Shown one piece after another: positions 5,086 to 47,068 of a DNA stretch of 64,000 bases (position 1 is its first letter; each line of letters begins with the position of its first letter). The position numbers were made by a program, and so were the translations under genes. The stretch comes from Candidatus Parcubacteria bacterium (lineage in GTDB: Bacteria > Patescibacteriota > Minisyncoccia > Phycocordibacterales > CAIJYI01), in the NCBI GenBank assembly GCA_026395595.1, contig JAPLYL010000003.1:76136-140135 (forward strand), written 5' to 3'. The notes below the pieces were generated by a model. That model made no database searches, was not told where the DNA came from, and saw only the letters and a list, made by a program, of their open reading frames with translations.

Positions 5086-6189
5086 ATGAATCCAAGAGAA
5101 CAATTTTCGGTGCAAAGAAATGAAAGCGACCCTCAATCAGAGAGGTATGACGACATGGAATTTTATCGGGAATACCAAGATCCGGGGAAAATTCTTGATG
5201 CGGTTGCTCGGCTTCAAATAATCAAAAATCTTCGGGTCGCAGGAAACAATGAGAATCCGCTTCGGCCTCTTCTGGAATATCGCGAATCACACCCGTCTCC
5301 TCATGGAGTAACTATGGGGATTGAAGTAGAATTACCGGAGGAGTCAGTGCTTGGCGAAGAAACAGAAGGAATGAATCGCGGGCAAAAGAAAAAATATCTT
5401 TTTGAACTGAAAGAACAATATCGGGAAACGGAAAAAATCGGCGTCCCCCGCGGAGAAGATCAGTTCTGGGAATTCGCACAACTGCCCGCTCATAACCCTG
5501 AAACGCTCGCGCGAGAAGTGCAGGCTCTTGTCGGCATGGGGCTCATCAACCCCGATTACGAAAAATTCCCGCTTCATGTAACTATCGGCGGAATTTCATT
5601 TTCCTCTAAAAACGATGACGGAGCGAATGTACTCGCGAGAGCTCTGGAAGCCACCGGTTGGGCGACGACCGGCGAGAGACTCATGGCTCCTTATACCGAT
5701 CCTGATTCAAATTGGACTTCCCACGATTTACCTTCCGGCATTCGCGAAAGAGGAAAGAATCGGCTGGCTCAACCGAAGACGGGAGAGACCACAACGGCCG
5801 TTGAGCTTCGCACTCCCGTTCTTCGCAGTCTTTTTGGACTAGATAGGTACCTTCACAGCGCTTATTATCTTTCCTCGGCCCTCCGCGCTTATCAGGAACA
5901 AAAGAAAGGCGACTGGATAGGAAAACAGCTCTCCAAGATTTGGCGGGTGTTTGCAGGAAAATGCGAGGCTCGTTTTGAGGAGGAGGGGATAACAAGTCCG
6001 TCGGAACTTTGGACGCTCAATACCGAGAATCCAAATGAAAATTCACCCTTCAAACAGCTGGCAAAGGTGCTGGATAAAGCCGAGGCGGATCCCGAAGGGA
6101 AGGAAGCGACATTCGTCCACGATATCCGCCATCTGATCATTTCCACCCGGGCCGAGGTCAAAGAAATCCTTGAAATGGACAGAAAATAA
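5086..6189 (+). CDS. Hypothetical protein of 367 aa with noticeably higher GC than its neighbours.
   Basis: The ORF is long and uninterrupted and starts 13 nt after pyrG. No family was recognised with confidence. The motifs GVTMGIEVELP and PLHVTIGG faintly resemble carboxylate-amine ligase or amidoligase signatures. Confidence 0.55.
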   Translation: MNPREQFSVQRNESDPQSERYDDMEFYREYQDPGKILDAVARLQIIKNLRVAGNNENPLRPLLEYRESHPSPHGVTMGIEVELPEESVLGEETEGMNRGQKKKYLFELKEQYRETEKIGVPRGEDQFWEFAQLPAHNPETLAREVQALVGMGLINPDYEKFPLHVTIGGISFSSKNDDGANVLARALEATGWATTGERLMAPYTDPDSNWTSHDLPSGIRERGKNRLAQPKTGETTTAVELRTPVLRSLFGLDRYLHSAYYLSSALRAYQEQKKGDWIGKQLSKIWRVFAGKCEARFEEEGITSPSELWTLNTENPNENSPFKQLAKVLDKAEADPEGKEATFVHDIRHLIISTRAEVKEILEMDRK

Positions 6190-6538: not shown

Positions 6539-6591
6539 AAGGTCTTCCCTTAAGGAGGAGTGAAGTGACGGGGAAAGGGGAGACCTTGGGG
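6539..6591. repeat. Conserved hairpin element, copy 1 of 2 (the other is at 43180-43241). It has an 11-bp stem, aaggtcttccc pairing with ggggagacctt, and the loop contains a perfect SD sequence taaggagga.
   Basis: The 50-nt core is near-identical to the 43180 copy. The stem was checked base by base. It sits between convergent genes, so no downstream CDS could use the SD. Confidence 0.5.
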
Positions 6592-17298: not shown

Positions 17299-18249
17299 GT
17301 GAAGATATCCAACATGGTACGACGCGCAATCGTTTATTATTTGAATAAATTTTTTATATCTATGGACAAGGTACTTATTCGGATCCACGAAAATATGGAG
17401 TCGGTAAAAAGAATGTCTCAAGATGAAAATCCAATGGAATTCTGGTCGGCTCGCGATTTGATGCCGCTATTGGGTTATTCCACTTGGCGTCAGTTTTCTG
17501 AGTCCATTGAACGGGCAAAAAACGCATGTAAAACAAGTGATCAGGTTGTTGATAGCCACTTTTTGCCGGCGCCGGCAAAAAGTCATGGAGGTCGTCCACA
17601 AGAAGATTATTATCTCACTCGCTATGCCTGTTATCTTATTGCTCAAAACGGCGACCCGCGTAAACCAGAGATTGCACTCGCTCAAACATATTTTGCAACA
17701 CAGACGAGAAAACAAGAACTTTTAGAAAAAAGAGAATACGAAGATAAACGTTTGGAATCGCGCGCAAAACTCAAAGATACGGAAAAGAAAATTGAGGGGA
17801 CGGTCTATCAGAGGGGTATCCGACTTCCTGTTGAGTTTGCAACTTTTAAAAATAAACACATTGAAGCACTCTATGGCGAAATCACCGCCGGCGAATTGAA
17901 ACGAATCCGAAAAATTCCGGGAGGTCAGTCGCTTGCCGATTTTGACAGTAATGTGGAGTTGAAGGCAAAAGATTTTGCACTCGCTATGACCGACCACAAC
18001 ATAAAAGAGAAAAATATTTTCGGAAAAGAAGCGATGAATGCCGAGGTTGTTAAAAACAGCAAAGAAACCCGACAAGCATTGCTTAATCGCGGAATCAAGC
18101 CTGAACTAATAAAACCGGAAGAAGATTTGAAAGTCATAGCAATAAGACGAAAAAAAGAGGAGAACCAAATAAAACCTCAAGCAAAACCAAAACTCATTGA
18201 GGGGAAGAAGAAAAATAGTAATGGGGACAGCCACCACCATTCTTTTTAA
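17299..18249 (+). CDS. dinD: DNA-damage-inducible protein D (DinD family). The real start may be the Met at 17362 or 17395.
   Basis: MEFWSARDLMPLLGY ... IERAKNACKTSDQVVDSHF matches E. coli DinD (EFWSARDLAPLLEY ... IEKAKTACENSGQ ... DHF). An extended -10 element tgGTATTAT lies at about 17252. Confidence 0.6.
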   Translation: MKISNMVRRAIVYYLNKFFISMDKVLIRIHENMESVKRMSQDENPMEFWSARDLMPLLGYSTWRQFSESIERAKNACKTSDQVVDSHFLPAPAKSHGGRPQEDYYLTRYACYLIAQNGDPRKPEIALAQTYFATQTRKQELLEKREYEDKRLESRAKLKDTEKKIEGTVYQRGIRLPVEFATFKNKHIEALYGEITAGELKRIRKIPGGQSLADFDSNVELKAKDFALAMTDHNIKEKNIFGKEAMNAEVVKNSKETRQALLNRGIKPELIKPEEDLKVIAIRRKKEENQIKPQAKPKLIEGKKKNSNGDSHHHSF

Positions 18250-18397: not shown

Positions 18398-18429
18398 CTT
18401 GAGATAAGTTCGGAGTCCGAGAAGCATTA

Positions 18430-18992
18430 AATCAACCACCCCGCCCCGAAGGGGACGGGGTATGAACAGAACATGGGTGTCAATTCCACAGCGTGGGCTG
18501 CGTGGTAATTCCCATCGTCTTTCCTTGGTTCTCGACATACTGCTTTACGGTATTCCAATTCCCCCGTTCGCTTACAGTGGCAAGGTAATATCCATCGCTC
18601 CAAAATTCACCTCCCCAAAGTTTTTTCCGCAATTCAGGAAATCGCTTGAACAATTCCCGAGCAGTTATACTCTTAAACATTCCTACGATTTGTGAACCCT
18701 TATATTTTGGATGAAAAGAACAGAGTATATGAATATGATTACCATCGGTGCCTACTTTCTCAAACTCAATTTCGTACCTCTCTTCTATTTCCTTAGCGAT
18801 TTCCAGAATTGCTCCTTTTATTTCCTCACTAAGTAATGACTTCCGATACTTTACCGGAAAGACGATATGGTAGTGCGTATCATATACGCAGTGATTGCTT
18901 CGAGTGACACCCATGTTGCTATTATATCAGAAAACCGAGGGTTTTCAGACTTTCCTACACGGTTCCCGCCCCAAGGGGCGGGGTAAGGGCTT
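18430..18992 (-). mobile_element. IS200/IS605-family insertion sequence with minimal tnpA only. It has subterminal hairpins at both ends.
   Basis: tnpA has the HuH motif YDTHYHIVF and a YYLATV catalytic tyrosine region. The hairpins ccccgcccc-gaa-ggggacgggg (18438-18461) and cccgcccc-aa-ggggcggg (18965-18982) flank the gene. Confidence 0.75.
18480..18914 (-). CDS. tnpA: IS200/IS605 family transposase TnpA (Y1 HuH).
   Basis: The 144-aa protein MGVTRSNHCVYDTHYHIVFPVKYRKSLL... is a textbook IS200 TnpA. Confidence 0.85.
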   Translation of the reverse strand: MGVTRSNHCVYDTHYHIVFPVKYRKSLLSEEIKGAILEIAKEIEERYEIEFEKVGTDGNHIHILCSFHPKYKGSQIVGMFKSITARELFKRFPELRKKLWGGEFWSDGYYLATVSERGNWNTVKQYVENQGKTMGITTQPTLWN

Positions 18993-19021
18993 CGCCAATT
19001 TAGTAATAATCTTTTATAAAT

Positions 19022-20254: not shown

Positions 20255-20415
20255 ACAATTGAATAAGTAAGTAGCCTAAACCGATAGTCGTATCGGCATG
20301 GTGAAAAAAAGTCCCGCAAAGACATAAAAAACCCATCATGTGGGGTGTCTTTGCGGGCCATATCGGGAAACCGGTATGAGGGGCTTCGGTCTCTACTCAC
20401 GTGGTGGGCTTTTTG
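20255..20415 (+). ncRNA. Candidate structured small RNA or cis-regulatory leader of about 160 nt. It has a pseudoknot, GAAA and UUCG tetraloop hairpins, and a terminator-like 3' end.
   Basis: Hairpin ccgatagtcgtatcgg is present. A 12-bp helix pairs gtcccgcaaagaca with tgtctttgcggg. A pseudoknot pairs cccaucaugug (inside that loop) with cacguggugggc, including G-U pairs. The GNRA hairpin cgg-gaaa-ccg and the UUCG hairpin gaggggc-uucg-gucuc are present. The RNA ends in a U-run. The G/C-rich reading frame 20340-20461 is not protein-like. Confidence 0.45.
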
Positions 20416-43158: not shown

Positions 43159-43179
43159 TGTTTTTTCACTTAGCGGACA

Positions 43180-43241
43180 AAGGTCTTCCCTTAAGGAGGA
43201 ATGAAGCGAAGCGGAATGACGGGGAAAGGGGAGACCTTGGG
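43180..43241. repeat. Conserved hairpin element, copy 2. It is the same stem as 6539-6591 with an SD-containing loop, plus a 10-nt insertion cgaagcggaa.
   Basis: It aligns with copy 1 across aaggtcttcccttaaggagga.tgaag ... tgacggggaaaggggagaccttggg. Confidence 0.5.
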
Positions 43242-43329
43242 TAGCGGTACCCCCCCTGATTTCCCGTTCCAACCACACGTGCAAAAAATCTTTTTTTCTG
43301 ATATAGTGGGAACACAATTTAATAGAGCA

Positions 43330-43414
43330 GGAGGGTTCGCATAGTGGCCGAGTGCGCGCGCTTGGAAAGCGCGTAGGGGGCAACCTCTCATGAGTTCGAA
43401 TCTCATACCCTCCG
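43330..43414 (+). tRNA. tRNA-Ser with anticodon GGA (class II, long variable arm).
   Basis: The fold was built by hand. The acceptor GGAGGGT pairs with ACCCTCC. The D-arm is GCA-TAGTGGCCGAG-TGC. The anticodon stem is CGCGC/GCGCG with loop TTGGAAA. The variable arm TAGGGGGCAACCTCTC is long. The T-arm is ATGAG-TTCGAAT-CTCAT. The discriminator is G. Confidence 0.85.
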
Positions 43415-43508
43415 CAGATTTGGAACGCAGTGGAAAAGCTGCGGAGGGTATGAGATGAGAAGTTTATCCTCGGTAGCGAAGCGGACGGGGAAATCTCATA
43501 CCCTCCGC
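43413..43508. repeat. Left boundary of the tRNA-Ser-adjacent island. It holds a 27-nt core cgcagatttggaacgcagtggaaaagc, which recurs at 45925-45951. It also holds an inverted copy (43441-43456) and a direct copy (43493-43508) of the tRNA 3' end atctcataccctccgc.
   Basis: All copies were read directly. The inverted and direct copies can form a 16-bp stem that mimics the tRNA acceptor/T-arm. Confidence 0.6.
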
Positions 43509-43535
43509 CAAGAATATTTTGTATCGGATGACCCA

Positions 43536-44060
43536 AGTGTATTGAAGATGGAACATTCGAACTGGTTTTGGTATAATATTTATATGAAGGGATTTGAACA
43601 AGCACCAATAGAAAACTCGGACTCTACTATAGAGACAATAGATAACTCGCCCGAAAAGAAACATAGTGAAGAAGAAAATATGTGGGATATTCTGCAAGAT
43701 GTTATTGATAACAGGTTCGAGGTGTTCAATGTAGATACTATGGCAGACTACGACGCGGATTTTTCTGGAAGTGAACCTTTGTTTATAAACATTTGGAATA
43801 AAAAGCCGGGGTCCGGGTTAGGATATGTTGTTTTTCACGATTTCTTACGGAGAGTAGGAACAGGAAAGACTTTTTTGTCGACAGATTTTACAGGACCGGG
43901 GGTGAGTCTTTTTAAGAAAGCGTCCAATGCTGGATTAATCAAGCAAGTGTCAGAACCTACTGGTCTACAAAGACTTACCAAATGGGAGGTCACAGGAGAC
44001 CCTGTTGCTAACATGGAAAAGATGAGAGATTCTTGCAATAAGAATTCCTCTACTAAGTAA
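43536..44060 (+). CDS. Hypothetical protein. Its start was re-assigned to MEHSNWFW, because the track ORF from 43455 begins inside the att-like hairpin.
   Basis: It is an intact ORF with no recognised family. Confidence 0.4.
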   Translation, partial: SVLKMEHSNWFWYNIYMKGFEQAPIENSDSTIETIDNSPEKKHSEEENMWDILQDVIDNRFEVFNVDTMADYDADFSGSEPLFINIWNKKPGSGLGYVVFHDFLRRVGTGKTFLSTDFTGPGVSLFKKASNAGLIKQVSEPTGLQRLTKWEVTGDPVANMEKMRDSCNKNSSTK

Positions 44061-44082
44061 CAAATTTCTTCCTCTTGACCGT

Positions 44083-44190
44083 CCCGACCTGAGTGCCTTA
44101 ACTTCACTCGGGAAAATGATCTACAATACCTTTACAAGGTCTTGCCTCCTGGATACTTAACCCGAGTGGCCCGCTCGTAGTATTTTTTAT
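44083..44190. repeat. Island-2 repeat family R, copy 2.
   Basis: atacctttacaaggtcttgcctcctggatacttaacccgagtggcccgctcgtag is homologous to the copies at 44865-44935 and 45870-45951. An extra hairpin cctgagtg...cactcggg lies upstream. Confidence 0.55.
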
Positions 44191-44237
44191 CGGATCTGTG
44201 CCGCGAGGCTTGGTTTTGGAAAATTTTTAAATTCTAT

Positions 44238-44804
44238 ATGAAATTTTTACTAATCGATAACGGTACAAGCTATCTTTCGCAGCTCAAAAATCTTCTCTCA
44301 GGATACTCCTTTCAGGTTATCAAATATTTTGAGTTGTCATCAATCAATATTGATGATTTTGATGTGATTATCCTTTCTGGCGGACATCGTCTTCCAATAG
44401 AAGGGAATGAAGGCCTTTTTTGCGAGGAAATAACACTGGTGAAAAATTCCAAACAGCCTATCTTCGGCATTTGTTTCGGTTTTGAAATTATCGCGCATGC
44501 CTTTGGGGCAAAACTTGAGCGAATGCAAAACAAAGAGCACAACATTATTGATATTAAAATAAACGAACCCGATAGTATATTTTTGGATATCCTCAATTTC
44601 CAAGTTTTTGAAAACCATCGGTGGGTAGTGAGAGAGGTGCCCGAAAATTTGATGGTATTGGCAGTTTCTAAAGATGGCATTGAAGCAATAAAGCACAAGA
44701 CAAAACCCATATACGCTGTACAATTTCACCCGGAGATGTTTGTGGAAAAGACATGCGGGGACGAAATTTTTTGCAATTTTCTGCGTACCATAAAGAAGAT
44801 ATGA
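44238..44804 (+). CDS. Class I glutamine amidotransferase (stand-alone, GMP-synthase-like GATase domain).
   Basis: The nucleophile cysteine is in GICFGFE. The His/Glu pair is in VQFHPE. Confidence 0.7.
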   Translation: MKFLLIDNGTSYLSQLKNLLSGYSFQVIKYFELSSINIDDFDVIILSGGHRLPIEGNEGLFCEEITLVKNSKQPIFGICFGFEIIAHAFGAKLERMQNKEHNIIDIKINEPDSIFLDILNFQVFENHRWVVREVPENLMVLAVSKDGIEAIKHKTKPIYAVQFHPEMFVEKTCGDEIFCNFLRTIKKI

Positions 44805-44864
44805 GGATTGCCTCAATTTCATAAAAACAGACATACTCGGAGACCTCTGCGTACGTAGGAAAAA

Positions 44865-44935
44865 TATGCTAAAATACCCTTACAAGTTGTTGGACTCGCT
44901 AGTACTGAACCCGAGTGGCCCGCCTTAAGAAAAAA
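44865..44935. repeat. Island-2 repeat family R, copy 3.
   Basis: tatgctaaaatacccttacaagttgttggactcgctagtactgaacccgagtggcccgcc aligns along its full length with the 45870 copy. Confidence 0.55.
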
Positions 44936-45002
44936 ATATCGGCATGACCTGTAAACATTAAAATCCCATTTCGTGTAATCACGAAATGGGATTTCTGCTA
45001 AA

Positions 45003-45770
45003 TTACTTCAAAAGAGCTAGTGCTTTGATGAGATACATTTCGGCCATATTCCAATCAATCGGGTCGAGAGCGTTTCCGCTTTGTCTCAGTTTTCCTTGAG
45101 CATCAATGCTGATATCGGGAAATTCTAGAACAAGAGGTTTAACAAGTCCTACGCTTTCCGGACCAAGTCCTCCGGCTGCAACAATGCTGATTTCGGGAAA
45201 TGCTTCTTTGACTGCTTTTGCGAACGGGATAAGTCCTGTCGCATCCATACCCAGTCCTTGTCCCATGCTTTTATCAAGAAGAACGTACTGAACGATATCT
45301 TTATAACCCGAAAGCCGTTTGACAACTTCTTTTGGATCGTCATTCGCTTCTTCAATGGCGTTCTTTCCGATTTGCAAAATAACCTCTAAATTAACCCCTG
45401 AAGCAAAAACTGCCTTGGCGATGTAATCGGGATTCGGCCATATCATATCGAGTTGCAAAGCATTGATACCGTTGCCGCCGTAGCTTATTGCTTTAGCGAT
45501 ACTGCACTGAACATCAATGGCTTCATAATCTGCATAATGAAGACAGTTCATTGTCTCACTTGAAGAAAAGATGTCCGCAATGTTTTCTTTTTTGGGAAAA
45601 GCCTTTGTCCATCTTGTTTCAAGATTATGAAGCGTCTTGTAGCTCATCATCACACCGACATGAAGCCTGCGGTTTTGGCTCGGAGCAAGGTTTGATTTAA
45701 ACACGGCAAGCATTTGCTGAACCTGTTCAAACGTCATGAAATCAGTGATTCCGACATATGGAATAATCAT
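45003..45770 (-). CDS. Phosphoribosylanthranilate isomerase-like (TrpF-family TIM barrel) protein.
   Basis: IVQYVLLDKSMGQGLGMDATGLIPF ... ISIVAAGGLGPESV resembles the PRAI ...LLDS..GGSG..FDW... and ...AGGL.PENV blocks. No other trp genes are nearby. Confidence 0.45.
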   Translation of the reverse strand: MIIPYVGITDFMTFEQVQQMLAVFKSNLAPSQNRRLHVGVMMSYKTLHNLETRWTKAFPKKENIADIFSSSETMNCLHYADYEAIDVQCSIAKAISYGGNGINALQLDMIWPNPDYIAKAVFASGVNLEVILQIGKNAIEEANDDPKEVVKRLSGYKDIVQYVLLDKSMGQGLGMDATGLIPFAKAVKEAFPEISIVAAGGLGPESVGLVKPLVLEFPDISIDAQGKLRQSGNALDPIDWNMAEMYLIKALALLK

Positions 45771-45869
45771 AAGGTTATCTCCTTTTTTAATGAAATTTCT
45801 GTTTTCAATATTATCGGATTTGCCTCGTAAAGTCCAATATATTAAATGTCTTGCTCTGTTCGCTAAAAG

Positions 45870-45951
45870 TATGCTAAAACATCTTTATATTGCTTGAAAT
45901 CGCTGGTACTGAACCTGAGTAGTACGCAGATTTGGAATGCAGTGGAAAAGC
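45870..45951. repeat. Island-2 repeat family R, copy 4, fused to the right-hand copy of the 27-nt boundary core cgcagatttggaatgcagtggaaaagc.
   Basis: It has one mismatch relative to 43413-43439. Confidence 0.6.
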
Positions 45952-45986
45952 GATAGCCATACTCACAAAAATCGAGATTAAAATTT

Positions 45987-46426
45987 ATGAAAAACACAGA
46001 GATAAAAATTACCAAGGCGGTTACTTTTGAGTCCCAAGAGATACGGGAATTGGAAACCCTTGTTTGGGAAGAAGAAGTGACCAACAAATATGATGTGCCA
46101 ATGTTTGTTCGTTTCGGGTATGTTTTTGTTGCAAAAATCGGAGATAAAATTGTCGGCGCTATGGTTACCGAACGAATGCGAATGAAGTCTATGTGAGCGA
46201 TATTGTCGTTCATCCGCAATATCAGGGCATGAAAATTGGAAAAAAACTCTTTAGAAAATTATTGCGCGTAGTGAGAGGCATGAACGTCGTTTCTTTTCTT
46301 GACCCAGAATTGGTACCGACATTTAATCTTCATAAAAAACTTGGAGGGAAAGTGATCGCAAGAGTAAAAGATCCTTACAACCTTGATACTGGAATTCGGT
46401 TGCTTGTTCGAATATCAAACTCGTAA
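45987..46426 (+). pseudogene. GNAT-family N-acetyltransferase split by a -1 frameshift near 46172-46195.
   Basis: ORF1 ends ...VTERMRMKSM* at 46196. ORF2 starts from GTG 46193 with SDIVVHPQYQGMKIGKKLFRKLL, which is GNAT motif A. The back-translated frame 2 gives ANEVYVSDIVV, the expected beta-4/motif A junction. The codons were checked by hand. Confidence 0.55.
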
Positions 46427-46436
46427 ATTTTTTTAA

Positions 46437-46463
46437 AAAAAGCCCCGTTGTTCGGGGCTTTTA
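46437..46463. terminator. Bidirectional intrinsic terminator.
   Basis: aaaagccccgttgttcggggctttt forms a hairpin. Confidence 0.7.
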
Positions 46464-46475
46464 CTCTAGAAATTT

Positions 46476-46754
46476 TTACCACAGTCCGTATCGTTTGCCT
46501 CCAAGGGGAATGCCGGGACCTTCTGCTATTTTTGGCCATTGGCCGTCTTTAACGCGCATTCGTACTACGGCGATGAATGAGGGTATTGAAAAAATGACAT
46601 ATAATCCGACGAAACCCGCAAGTTTGGTTAATCCGGCGAACCAAAGAATAAAAGGCAGGGCAATCATTCCCAGTATGAGAAAAAGAACCATTATGAATAT
46701 CTCCTCTTTTGTGAATCTAACGGAAAGGATATAGGACTTTTTCTCGCGTTGCAA
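46476..46754 (-). CDS. Small membrane protein of 92 aa.
   Basis: Two TM helices are present. It converges on the shared terminator. Confidence 0.4.
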   Translation of the reverse strand: MQREKKSYILSVRFTKEEIFIMVLFLILGMIALPFILWFAGLTKLAGFVGLYVIFSIPSFIAVVRMRVKDGQWPKIAEGPGIPLGGKRYGLW

Positions 46755-46834
46755 GACTGTCGTCGTTTGACTAATATTGTATTAAGTGATACTATAATCT
46801 TCGGTTTTGATTTTTAACGAAAAGGAGAAAAGAC

Positions 46835-47068
46835 ATGAATGATGTTCTGCCGAATCCTAAAAAAGTTTTAACGATTCTTATGGTCGTACTCGCTTTGATT
46901 GTGGTTGTTTTTTTTACTTTATCCGGAGAACCTTTTTGGCGAACCGGCGTATTGATTCTTTTGCTTTCTTTGATCCGAGTTCCGGGACTTTTAATCTCGT
47001 CTGTCGGGAAAAAGAAATGCGTGGTGCGTAGCAAGCGTGCTCGTCGTAAAGCCCTTTTGAAAAAGTAA
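46835..47068 (+). CDS. Small membrane protein of 77 aa.
   Basis: The RBS aaaaggagaaaag lies before the ATG. Two TM helices are present. The terminator agcggtcggtttatccgaccgcttttt lies at 47081-47106. Confidence 0.45.
   Translation: MNDVLPNPKKVLTILMVVLALIVVVFFTLSGEPFWRTGVLILLLSLIRVPGLLISSVGKKKCVVRSKRARRKALLKK

What the first reader, a model, noticed from the sequence alone, without database searches (positions are those of the whole stretch)
43180..46470. tRNA-Ser-anchored mini-island bounded by 27-nt direct repeats, with duplicated tRNA 3' end and its own inter-gene repeat family
The last bases of tRNA-Ser(GGA) run into a 27-nt core, cgcagatttggaaYgcagtggaaaagc, that recurs with one mismatch at 45925-45951, 2.5 kb away. 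This is the classic attL/attR arrangement of an element integrated at a tRNA 3' end. Just inside the left boundary, the tRNA 3' terminus atctcataccctccgc is present again as an inverted copy (43441-43456) and as a direct copy (43493-43508), and these could form a 16-bp acceptor-like hairpin. The cargo is four single-gene modules: an unknown protein, a stand-alone class I GATase, a TrpF-like TIM barrel on the opposite strand, and a frameshifted GNAT. Each is separated by a copy of a second, unrelated repeat of about 60 nt, (t)atgctaaaataccYttacaag...tactgaacccgagtggcccgc, at 44126-44180, 44865-44935 and 45870-45924. A 20-nt block gcgaagcgga.gacggggaaa is also shared between the element upstream of the tRNA (43208-43232) and the hairpin loop downstream (43474-43496). 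No integrase is present, so this is either a decayed integrative element or a recombination hotspot served by a recombinase encoded elsewhere.
Basis: seen in the sequence. Interest (0 to 1): 0.75.

Follow-up and report, generated by a model that had tools for sequence, protein, structure and literature searches.

The report
Gene-cassette array behind a serine tRNA
Downstream of a serine tRNA gene in this Patescibacteria genome lies a row of three single-gene cassettes.

Summary
The single-element reading (one 2.5-kb island between 27-nt att cores with a private repeat family) does not hold.

- **R repeat.** R belongs to a ~95-nt family with 106 exact-core hits in metagenomes. It forms same-orientation arrays and is tightly linked to tRNA-Ser genes: 37 of 63 nearby tRNAs, five anticodons.
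- **PJ motif.** R is followed at fixed spacing by a ~30-nt motif, PJ (CCGC-N13-TATCGG-N3-4-GACCC). The same motif follows tRNA-Ser genes.
- **Element ends.** In complete elements elsewhere, PJ is the left end and R the right end of 6-13-kb elements carrying a large serine recombinase (LSR) next to tRNA-Ser.
- **Hotspot.** Closest relatives hold an LSR element or different cassettes at this tRNA.
- **Window layout.** tRNA | 24-nt leader + tRNA-mimicking minihelix | three recombinase-less PJ-gene-R cassettes | second leader copy | decayed GNAT gene.
- **The 27-nt repeat.** It is two copies of the leader of the minihelix module, which recurs in other genomes. A crossover between them cannot be excluded.

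I read the island as tandem non-autonomous derivatives of tRNA-Ser-targeting LSR elements (confidence about 0.5). The recombinase, the crossover point and the minihelix function remain inferred. I rate it a new variant of a known kind.

The parts
43178..43241 (+). Dispersed hairpin element between htpX and the tRNA. A second copy lies at 6539-6590. It carries the GCGAAGCGGA..CGGGGAAA block.
   Evidence: z = -3.5
43330..43414 (+). tRNA-Ser(GGA), the anchor of the array. CCA is not encoded (..CCTCCG|CAG).
43413..43439 (+). 27-nt repeat, copy 1: CGC plus a 24-nt leader, AGATTTGGAACGCAGTGGAAAAGC. It precedes the minihelix. The same leader occurs in L096 and L057.
43440..43509 (+). Minihelix module M. 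The 5' arm (43441-43456) is an inverted copy of the tRNA 3' end, the loop is conserved, and the 3' arm (43492-43508) is a direct copy of the tRNA 3' end and ends in CCA.
   Evidence: weak match to the related structured-RNA model, 19.4 bits
43509..43540 (+). PJ0, left-end motif: CAAGAATATTTTGTATCGGATGACCCAAGTG
43551..44060 (+). Cassette 1 gene, function unknown. The start codon is uncertain (43551 or 43585).
44078..44174 (+). R1, right-end element of cassette 1
   Evidence: 66 bits, E 3e-18
44175..44205 (+). PJ1, degenerate: TATCGG at +13, GACCC lost
44238..44804 (+). Cassette 2 gene: stand-alone class I glutamine amidotransferase
44817..44924 (+). R2, right-end element of cassette 2
   Evidence: 61 bits
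44925..44950 (+). PJ2: TTAAGAAAAAAATATCGGCATGACC
44961..44994 (.). Perfect 15-bp hairpin at the 3' end of the cassette 3 gene, probably its terminator. A counterpart is present in L124 and L227.
45003..45770 (-). Cassette 3 gene: TIM-barrel protein of a large Patescibacteria-only family
45849..45927 (+). R3, decayed right-end element of cassette 3
   Evidence: (29 bits)
45925..45951 (+). 27-nt repeat, copy 2. The leader is present but no minihelix follows it.
45987..46426 (+). Frameshifted GNAT acetyltransferase gene, outside the repeat-bounded segment but inside the variable region
46476..46754 (-). 92-aa membrane protein gene with no counterpart in relatives. The conserved backbone resumes at 46835 (77-aa protein) and 47165 (mscL).

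Best explanation
The region 43416 to about 46800 is the variable content of an integration hotspot at the 3' end of tRNA-Ser(GGA).

**Core of the region.** Three recombinase-less mini-elements ('cassettes') sit in tandem. Each has the form PJ (about 30-nt left end) - one gene - R (about 95-nt right end), and each is joined to the previous unit right after a '...CCGC(C)' end.

**What PJ and R are.** They are the terminal sequences of a family of integrative, phage-like elements of Patescibacteria. These elements encode a large serine recombinase (LSR) and insert immediately 3' of tRNA-Ser genes.
- In a circular element, the last ~25 nt of R joined to PJ would form an attP-sized site of about 52 bp.
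- After integration, tRNA|PJ is attL and R|downstream is attR.
- The window's cassettes are non-autonomous derivatives, or decay products, that kept the ends but not the recombinase. They would depend on an LSR supplied in trans.

**The 27-nt repeat.** It is the 24-nt leader of a second module. That module is a hairpin (minihelix) whose stem copies the acceptor and T stems of the local tRNA-Ser. It is a miniature of a ~137-nt structured RNA found in the same position in other genomes. One copy is intact, directly after the tRNA. The other, after R3, has lost its hairpin.

**Shown.** The repeats; the family-wide tRNA-Ser linkage; PJ and R as the ends of LSR elements; variable occupancy among relatives; the same cassette at different tRNA-Ser loci.

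**Inferred.** That the LSR is the enzyme acting on PJ and R; the crossover position; mobilisation in trans; the function of the minihelix.
For: **1. R is a widespread family.**
- 106 metagenome stretches carry the exact 19-base R core.
- The HMM finds 130 copies in 111 loci, with same-orientation arrays spaced 0.4-3 kb in at least 14 loci.

**2. R is linked to tRNA-Ser.**
- In those 106 loci, 37 of 63 tRNAs are tRNA-Ser, with anticodons GGA, CGA, GCT, TGA and ACT.
- 32 of the 37 lie upstream of R on the same strand.

**3. PJ has fixed geometry.** TATCG lies 13 nt after CCGC in 17 of 19 R|PJ junctions, and at the same spacing after tRNA-Ser genes.

**4. PJ and R are inserted DNA, not native flank.** Among 50 tRNA-Ser loci collected through HtpX rather than through R:
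- 2 have both PJ and R;
- 2 have R only;
- 46 have neither.

**5. Complete elements have the order tRNA-Ser|PJ .. LSR(-) .. R.** Examples are L148 (12.4 kb), L087 (6.3 kb) and L180 (about 13 kb).
- In six R loci carrying this LSR type (L087, L148, L167, L169, L170, L180), the gene lies 4-12 kb upstream of R on the opposite strand.
- In L082 it lies 2.7 kb downstream of an R|PJ junction.
- LSR domains are confirmed by Pfam.

**6. LSR genes abut tRNA-Ser(GGA) downstream of htpX** in L002, L008 and L016.

**7. IMG/VR relatives of the LSR.**
- Five of them (four of those at >=67% identity, plus L214 at 54%) lie 0.8-5 kb from a tRNA-Ser on the opposite strand.
- More distant ones lie next to tRNA-Asp, Glu or Gln.
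- One viral contig holds two LSR elements in tandem, with an R|PJ junction after one of them.

**8. The hotspot varies among relatives.** L002 (93% HtpX identity), L125, L003 and the window all differ between the tRNA and mscL.

**9. The TIM-barrel cassette recurs with its own R.**
- At tRNA-Ser(CGA) in L124: 77% protein identity, with DNA homology running from CCGCC|PJ to the R right half.
- Inside an LSR/ParB-methylase element in L226/L227, and in L223-L225.

**10. Site size fits an LSR.** R right half plus PJ spans about 52 bp, with outer inverted GGGT..ACCC. An LSR attP has two 25-bp half-sites (PMC3783163).

**11. The minihelix is a real module.**
- It occurs in L096, L100 and L110 with stems matching the local tRNA-Ser or a different tRNA-Ser acceptor/T-stem sequence (L100).
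- An inner stem shows a compensatory change.
- L057 has the order tRNA|leader|full structured RNA|PJ.
Against: - No recombinase is encoded in or near the island, and none was recognised among 47 of the ~65 called window ORFs apart from an unrelated IS200-type transposase.
- No recombinase family is consistently in cis with R. Only about 9 of the 106 R loci show an LSR.
- Canonical LSRs recombine only attP with attB. Tandem R|PJ junctions need non-canonical site pairs or repeated use of an attB-like end (PMC3783163).
- Dyad symmetry between R right half and PJ is weak: only the outer 4-7 bases match.
- The upstream ~70 nt of R is conserved without any assigned role. No conserved RNA structure was found in it, and the promoter-like match is not above chance.
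- The LSR type found directly at ...CCGCC| (L002 type) differs from the type found in PJ/R-ended elements (L082 type). More than one system may share the site.
Confidence: 0.5

Rival explanations
1. One 2.5-kb element integrated at the tRNA 3' end by a tyrosine-type integrase, with the 27-nt repeat as the duplicated att core (attL/attR). It has since decayed or is served in trans.
For: - The repeat is 27 nt at 96% identity and unique in 64 kb.
- In L096 the order R|leader|minihelix is contiguous, as an attP or tandem junction would be.
- A crossover inside the leader between 'tRNA|leader..' and a circle carrying 'R3|leader|minihelix..' would reproduce the observed order exactly (inference).
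Against: - Only 2-3 nt of the repeat belong to the tRNA.
- Both copies follow a '...CGC|' end that is itself a recurrent junction.
- The leader is part of a conserved module seen directly after tRNA-Ser in the distant L057 with no second copy.
- The internal PJ-gene-R periodicity and the independent recurrence of cassette 3 show that the segment is composite.
- No tyrosine integrase recurs among 150 neighbouring protein families.
Confidence: 0.15
2. A flexible island maintained by homologous recombination. PJ and R are conserved sequences, whatever their function, that act as portable homology arms. Cassettes would be swapped after DNA uptake with no dedicated site-specific recombinase.
For: - No recombinase lies in cis in most R loci.
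- R and PJ are long enough (about 95 and 30 nt) and conserved enough across lineages to support homology-facilitated exchange.
- Small GIY-YIG nuclease genes that could make breaks recur exactly at the ...CCGCC junctions.
Against: - It does not explain why R and PJ are so conserved, why they are confined to tRNA-Ser genes of five anticodons, or why the geometry is fixed at CCGC-N13-TATCGG.
- Complete elements carry an LSR with PJ and R as their ends.
Confidence: 0.15
3. An integron-like platform. R is an attC-like site, tRNA|PJ is an attI-like site, and an unlinked tyrosine recombinase inserts single-gene cassettes.
For: - The units are single genes about 0.7-1 kb long, each followed by a conserved site, in same-orientation arrays next to a fixed anchor.
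- A gene travels together with its own site.
Against: - R has no attC-type imperfect palindrome and no conserved R''/R' boxes (RYYYAAC / GTTRRRY). Its conservation lies in sequence blocks, not in structure.
- Cassette genes occur in both orientations.
- No IntI-like gene was seen in the window or recurrently near R.
Confidence: 0.08
4. PJ+R is a host-encoded functional unit, either a small RNA or a promoter/regulatory region co-transcribed with tRNA-Ser. The genes between PJ and R would then be secondary insertions into it.
For: - In L091 the order tRNA-Ser|PJ+R is contiguous with no cargo.
- The R left half resembles an extended -10 box (TGCTAAAAT) facing the next gene (sequence; flags the R1 TACAAT site).
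- The 21-nt core is extremely conserved.
Against: - It is absent from 46 of 50 related tRNA-Ser loci.
- There are several copies per locus.
- R sits at the ends of LSR elements.
- No covarying structure was found and there is no Rfam match.
- The promoter scan is not above chance.
Confidence: 0.07

Closest known systems
Tycheposons and the tRNA-anchored genomic islands of Prochlorococcus (Hackl et al., bioRxiv 10.1101/2020.12.28.424599)
   Same: - Elements integrate at specific tRNA genes of a streamlined genome.
- New arrivals push older ones outward, giving tandem arrays of small cargo modules plus decayed remnants.
- Cargo varies between close relatives.
   Different: - Tycheposons use tyrosine recombinases, and their modules are separated by partial copies of the tRNA.
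- Here the separators are R/PJ, which are not tRNA fragments.
- The only recombinases seen in cis in relatives are large serine recombinases.
- All isoacceptors of one amino acid (Ser) are used.
Large serine recombinase prophages and integrative elements (A118, phiC31, Bxb1 type; PMC3783163)
   Same: - The LSR gene sits at one end of the element, next to the attachment junction.
- The attP-sized site is about 50 bp, made of two ~25-bp halves.
- There is no long direct repeat of target sequence at the two ends.
   Different: - Classical LSR elements do not leave arrays of recombinase-less single-gene units.
- They do not form tandem attP-like junctions.
- They rarely target the extreme 3' end of a tRNA gene family.
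- The extra ~70 nt of R has no counterpart.
Cis-mobilisable elements (CIMEs) and accretion of integrative elements at one att site. Recalled from the Streptococcus ICESt1/ICESt3 literature; not re-read here.
   Same: Elements that lack recombination genes but are flanked by att-type ends, sitting in tandem with autonomous elements that use the same site and could mobilise them.
   Different: - Those systems use tyrosine integrases with identical core repeats.
- Their units are many kilobases long, not single genes.
Integron cassette arrays and integrase-less attC clusters (CALINs)
   Same: - Single-gene units, each followed by a recombination-site-like repeat.
- Arrays in one orientation next to a fixed anchor.
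- A gene and its site travel together.
   Different: - No attC hairpin or R''/R' boxes and no IntI.
- Gene orientation is mixed.
- Site conservation is at the sequence level, and the anchor is a tRNA gene.

Membership tests
tRNA-gene genomic island made by a tyrosine integrase (Islander type) | Island flanked by the intact tRNA gene and a displaced direct copy of its 3' part | tested here: inconclusive
   A 17-nt displaced copy of the tRNA 3' end exists (43492-43508), but only 93 bp from the gene. The 2.5-kb repeat is not tRNA sequence.
tRNA-gene genomic island made by a tyrosine integrase (Islander type) | Tyrosine integrase gene inside or beside the island | tested here: not met
   None was found among the island ORFs or the 47 window ORFs scanned. 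None recurs among 150 protein families near R. Both alignment scans list only the top 25 families.
tRNA-gene genomic island made by a tyrosine integrase (Islander type) | Variable occupancy of the site among related genomes | tested here: met
   L002, L003, L125 and the window differ between tRNA-Ser and mscL.
Large serine recombinase integrative element | LSR gene (Resolvase + Recombinase + Zn_ribbon_recom domains) in the element | tested here: not met
   It is absent from the window. It is present at the same tRNA in L002, L008 and L016, and in PJ/R-ended elements L148, L087 and L180. The window units can therefore be derivatives at most.
Large serine recombinase integrative element | attP of about 50 bp with two ~25-bp imperfectly symmetric half-sites around a central dinucleotide | tested here: inconclusive
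   R right half plus PJ spans about 52 bp with fixed spacing, but only the outer GGGT..ACCC is symmetric. The crossover has not been mapped.
Large serine recombinase integrative element | Recombination of attP with attB by the LSR | not testable with these tools
   This needs an in vitro or in vivo assay.
Integron / CALIN | attC sites: imperfect palindromes with RYYYAAC and GTTRRRY boxes | tested here: not met
   The consensus and alifold analysis of 89 distinct R sequences shows conserved blocks, no long hairpin and no conserved boxes.
Integron / CALIN | IntI-type integrase next to the array (integron). For a CALIN, at least 2 attC sites. | tested here: not met
   No integrase was found, and the sites are not attC.
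REP / MITE-like dispersed repeat | Many copies scattered over unrelated intergenic sites of the genome | tested here: not met
   The 27-mer and R occur only in this locus within 64 kb. Across other genomes R stays next to tRNA-Ser. The rest of the genome was not available.
Tycheposon-like tRNA island | Modules separated by partial tRNA copies; tyrosine recombinase hallmark genes | tested here: not met
   The separators are R/PJ. There is no tRNA model hit on R and no tyrosine recombinase.
Bacterial RNase P RNA 3' fragment (a lead I raised for R+PJ) | Match to the RNase P covariance models, or to genuine rnpB of related genomes | tested here: not met
   There is no Rfam hit at E<=10. Alignment to E. 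coli M1 RNA is only marginal. Genuine Patescibacteria rnpB genes in the loci lack the R core.

The most novel reading that the evidence does not exclude
Patescibacteria carry a previously undescribed platform for gene capture.
- A clade of large serine recombinases is specialised on the 3' ends of tRNA genes, and its closest members target every tRNA-Ser isoacceptor.
- Their ~52-bp attP halves (R right half and PJ) have been co-opted as the ends of miniature, recombinase-less single-gene cassettes.
- These cassettes accumulate in integron-like arrays and move between different tRNA-Ser loci and between phage-like elements.
- A companion tRNA-Ser-mimicking RNA or hairpin (the minihelix and its ~137-nt relatives) regenerates a tRNA-like '...CCGCC' landing end.
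Probability: 0.35. Interest if true: 0.75.

Novelty: new variant of a known kind. Interest (0 to 1): 0.6.

Why it matters
Patescibacteria (CPR) have tiny genomes, and little is known about how they acquire genes. If this reading holds, much of their small-scale gene flux would run through tRNA-Ser genes. The cargo seen here includes defence genes, methyltransferases and small enzymes.

The carriers would be a serine-recombinase element family and its miniature derivatives. That is a serine-recombinase counterpart to integron cassettes or tycheposon islands.

It would also supply:
- a defined, short and very conserved attP-like sequence, together with matching recombinases, of possible use as genome-engineering tools;
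- a marker for finding accessory genes in CPR metagenomes;
- a new structured RNA family derived from tRNA-Ser.

Tried and rejected
**1. R+PJ as a 3' fragment of RNase P RNA.**
- Every R copy aligns to the same place in E. coli M1 RNA (279-306), but significance is marginal (1-68 of 500 shuffles reach the score).
- There are no Rfam hits.
- Real rnpB genes of related genomes lack the R core. Rejected.

**2. R as tmRNA, a permuted tmRNA piece, or a tRNA pseudogene.** ARAGORN and the Rfam tRNA and tmRNA models find nothing. Rejected.

**3. R as a structured RNA.** RNAalifold on 89 distinct copies finds only a tiny hairpin inside invariant sequence, on either strand. No support.

**4. R as a relative of the ~137-nt structured RNA.** The covariance model does not hit R. 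Not supported.

**5. R left half as a promoter.** The consensus scan is not above chance: 7 sites against 8.5 expected. Left as a hypothesis.

**6. attC-like reading of R.** No boxes and no palindrome.

**7. A recombinase recurrently linked to R.**
- I clustered 1066 neighbouring ORFs and ran Pfam on 150 family representatives.
- Only the LSR cluster (6 loci) and a ParB-methylase family (14 loci) look mobile. No tyrosine integrase recurred.

**8. The IS200-type transposase at 18.5 kb as the agent.** Its end hairpins are unrelated to R, PJ or the minihelix. Rejected.

**9. Searches that returned little or nothing.**
- An exact-protein look-up of HtpX found nothing.
- The GATase look-up found only a 3.75-kb Logan contig identical to window 43212-46962.
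- The 27-mer is absent from IMG/VR.

**10. Literature.** Searches on Patescibacteria cassettes, integrases and tRNA-Ser found no description of this system.

Full report
**1.

ARAGORN and Rfam place tRNA-Ser(GGA) at 43330-43414.

The 27-mer CGCAGATTTGGAAYGCAGTGGAAAAGC occurs exactly twice in the 64-kb window, at 43413-43439 and 45925-45951, with none in 100 shuffles. Only its first 2-3 bases belong to the tRNA.

The tRNA's last 17 nt recur directly at 43492-43508 and, inverted, at 43441-43456. These two copies form a 16-bp hairpin (-38.4 kcal/mol, z = -5.3).

The intergenic repeat R is present three times. A profile HMM extends the copies to about 95 nt: 44078-44174, 44817-44924 and a decayed 45849-45920.

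The cargo calls are mostly right:
- an unknown protein;
- a class I glutamine amidotransferase (GATase);
- a minus-strand protein that AlphaFold models as a confident TIM barrel (pLDDT 93.4), though its matches are generic barrels rather than TrpF;
- a split GNAT gene.

There is no compositional anomaly. I found no integrase. The only transposase recognised in the window is an IS200-type gene at 18.5 kb; 47 of the ~65 called ORFs were scanned.

**2. The site is a hotspot**

I used the neighbouring HtpX protein to fetch 80 related loci from species-representative genomes. The organism is a Paceibacteria/Parcubacteria-type member of the Patescibacteria. tRNA-Ser(GGA) downstream of htpX is conserved among them.

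What follows the tRNA is not conserved:
- L002, the closest relative (93% HtpX identity), has a large serine recombinase (LSR) gene directly after the tRNA.
- L003 (85%) has an unrelated set of small genes before the conserved small-membrane-protein and mscL genes.
- L125 has just two other genes there.

The variable stretch in the window runs from 43416 to about 46800. It therefore includes the GNAT pseudogene and a 92-aa membrane protein gene, both outside the 27-nt repeats.

**3. R is not private to this island**

L003 contains R-like copies.

A metagenome scan with the 19 specified bases of the R right half (TACTNAACCCGAGTGGNCCGC) returned 106 stretches. Nearly all share the extended element GACCC-N5-CCTCA-N~20-GCTAAAATACCCTTA-N~18-GGGTACTTAACCCGAGTGGCCCGC.

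The HMM finds 130 copies in 111 loci. Same-orientation arrays of 2-3 copies, spaced 0.4-3 kb, occur in at least 14 loci.

In the 106 loci, 37 of 63 tRNA genes are tRNA-Ser. They carry five different anticodons, and 32 of them lie upstream of R on the same strand, typically 8 nt to 1.2 kb away.

R matches no Rfam family and shows no covarying structure.

**4. A second motif, PJ, goes with R**

R is very often followed by PJ, in which TATCGG lies 13 nt after ...CCGC and GACCC lies 3-4 nt further on (17 of 19 distinct junctions). The same motif at the same spacing follows tRNA-Ser genes.

In L091 the order tRNA-Ser|PJ+R is contiguous, with no gene inside.

Among 50 tRNA-Ser loci collected independently of R:
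- 46 have neither PJ nor R;
- 2 have both;
- 2 have R without PJ directly after the tRNA.

PJ and R are therefore the two ends of inserted DNA, not native flank. The window reads as:

tRNA | leader + minihelix | PJ0-gene1-R1 | PJ1-gene2-R2 | PJ2-gene3(reverse)-R3 | leader | GNAT...

**5. PJ and R are the ends of recombinase-bearing elements**

tblastn with the two LSRs found so far shows two groups:
- an 'L082-type' LSR in R loci L082, L087, L148, L167, L169, L170 and L180, and in the HtpX locus L016;
- an 'L002-type' LSR in L002, L008, L154 and L131.

Where contigs are long enough the order is tRNA-Ser|PJ .. LSR(minus strand) .. R. Examples are L148 (12.4 kb), L087 (6.3 kb) and L180 (about 13 kb). 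R lies next to a divergently transcribed unknown gene and a ParB-methylase gene in 9-14 loci.

Thirty-three IMG/VR contigs encode relatives of the LSR.
- Five of them (four of those at 67% identity or more, plus L214 at 54%) sit 0.8-5 kb from a tRNA-Ser on the opposite strand.
- More distant ones sit next to tRNA-Asp, Glu or Gln.
- One contig carries two LSR elements in tandem, with an R|PJ junction after one of them.

The last ~25 nt of R plus PJ span about 52 bp with outer inverted GGGT..ACCC. That is the size of an LSR attP with its two 25-bp half-sites (PMC3783163).

**6. Cassettes travel with their R**

The TIM-barrel gene has about 1000 homologues, all in Patescibacteria and all unannotated. 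It recurs as follows:
- In L124 a 77%-identical copy lies at a tRNA-Ser(CGA) locus with the same layout: PJ, terminator hairpin, reversed gene, R. The DNA homology starts at CCGCC| and stops inside the R right half.
- In L226/L227 it lies inside an LSR/ParB-methylase element, in an array in which R|PJ junctions separate a nucleoside deoxyribosyltransferase cassette from a MazG-like + TIM-barrel cassette.
- In L223-L225 an R lies beside it.
- In L228 it lies downstream of tRNA-Ser(TGA).

**7. What the 27-nt repeat is**

After the shared CGC, its 24 nt are the leader of the minihelix module. The evidence:
- The same leader plus minihelix follows an R in L096, where both arms carry the local tRNA variant (A to T, with the compensating change). 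An inner stem also shows a G:C to C:G swap.
- L100 has a minihelix whose stem matches a different tRNA-Ser acceptor/T-stem sequence, around the same conserved loop.
- In the distant L057 the order is tRNA-Ser|leader|a full ~150-nt structured RNA|PJ.
- That RNA family has a 137-position model in which 24 of 42 pairs covary, and it has no Rfam match. It occupies the same position after R in several loci, and its covariance model weakly matches the window's minihelix (19.4 bits, E about 0.01).

The two 27-mers are therefore two copies of one module's 5' end. One is intact after the tRNA and one is truncated after R3. Sequences resembling the leader (CAGTTGGGAAA.., CAAAATTCGGAA..) follow tRNA-Ser or R where an L002-type LSR gene comes next. 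This resemblance is loose and is only my inference.

The arrangement is not that of a classical attL/attR pair.

**8. Mechanism**

Most likely (about 0.5): the island is a tandem accretion of non-autonomous derivatives of tRNA-Ser-targeting LSR elements, dependent on a recombinase in trans.

Weak points:
- canonical LSRs do not use attL- or attR-like sites, yet tandem junctions exist;
- the dyad symmetry of the putative attP is poor;
- 70 nt of R remain unexplained;
- no recombinase is in the window.

Rivals are the single-element model, homology-driven cassette exchange (small GIY-YIG nuclease genes recur exactly at the junctions), an integron-like system with an unknown tyrosine recombinase, and a host-RNA reading of PJ+R.

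**9. Comparison and novelty**

The closest known systems are:
- tycheposon islands;
- LSR prophages;
- CIME accretion (recalled from memory, not re-read);
- integron arrays.

The island fails the defining tests of each as a member (see the membership table). I found no description of this system in the held literature. I rate it a new variant of a known kind.

Noticed in passing
window 6539-6590 and 43178-43241: A dispersed 52-64-nt hairpin element, AAGGTCTTCCCTTAAGGAGGARTGAAG..TGACGGGGAAAGGGGAGACCTTGG. One copy follows a terminator between convergent genes. The other lies between htpX and the tRNA and carries a 10-nt insert. Its loop shares the GCGAAGCGGA..CGGGGAAA block with the minihelix loop.
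   Followed up: partly
L124 1234-1379 and 8871-9015; L128 2448-2585; L162 64-201; L179 1116-1250; L092 3100-3221; L181 1249-1357; L004 14272-14396(-); L057 14452-14604: An unnamed structured RNA with a 137-position model. 24 of 42 predicted pairs show compensatory changes among 7 sequences, and there is no Rfam match. Its outer stems copy the acceptor and T stems of a neighbouring tRNA-Ser and it ends in GCC(A). It sits after tRNA genes or after R and is followed by PJ. The window's minihelix looks like a miniature of it.
   Followed up: partly
window 20273-20394 (+): LOOT RNA (Rfam RF03000), 77.9 bits, well above the gathering score.
   Followed up: no
window 18400-19000: An IS200/IS605-type element. 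It has a Y1 transposase gene at 18483-18914(-) (PF01797, E 1.5e-37), flanked by G+C-rich hairpins at 18438-18461 and about 18962-18982. A BRO-N domain protein gene (17314-18246) lies next to it.
   Followed up: partly
L096 about 1360-1130 (minus strand); L100 1041-1310; L091 after R; decayed in L003 about 5890-6140: A small (~90-aa) GIY-YIG nuclease gene with a conserved leader, TTCGCCnCGCCATAGCTC..GCGACGGCGGG. It recurs immediately after a ...CCGCC end (of the tRNA, the minihelix or R). It may be a homing-type selfish gene using the same junction.
   Followed up: partly
window 43411-43418 versus 43505-43512: The functional tRNA-Ser gene does not encode CCA (..CCTCCG|CAGATT). The displaced 3'-end copy at the end of the minihelix does (..CCTCCG|CCAAGA), as do the tRNA genes of relatives L002 and L004. 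The insertion therefore falls inside the CCA.
   Followed up: no
L200, L207, L212, L217, L220 (IMG/VR): More distant members of the same LSR clade lie 0.1-2.3 kb from tRNA-Asp, tRNA-Glu or tRNA-Gln genes on the opposite strand. This suggests clade-wide specialisation on tRNA gene ends.
   Followed up: no
L082/L190-L191 (IMGVR_UViG_3300000970_000154): A 28-kb 'viral' contig holds two LSR elements in tandem (86% identical LSRs) next to tRNA-Ser(ACT) and tRNA-Ser(GCT). A Shedu (SduA) defence gene and a type IIG-like restriction-modification gene lie beside one LSR.
   Followed up: partly
window 45003-45770 (-): The TIM-barrel cargo protein belongs to a family of about 1000 proteins that are 60-77% identical, all from Patescibacteria and all 'hypothetical', with no Pfam or NCBIfam model. 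That is unusually well conserved for a gene that behaves as mobile cargo.
   Followed up: partly
window, whole: The whole-window Rfam run at gathering thresholds listed tRNA-Gln and LOOT but not tRNA-Ser, although the regional run scored tRNA-Ser at 51.8 bits (gathering score 29). This is probably a filter effect of the tool.
   Followed up: no
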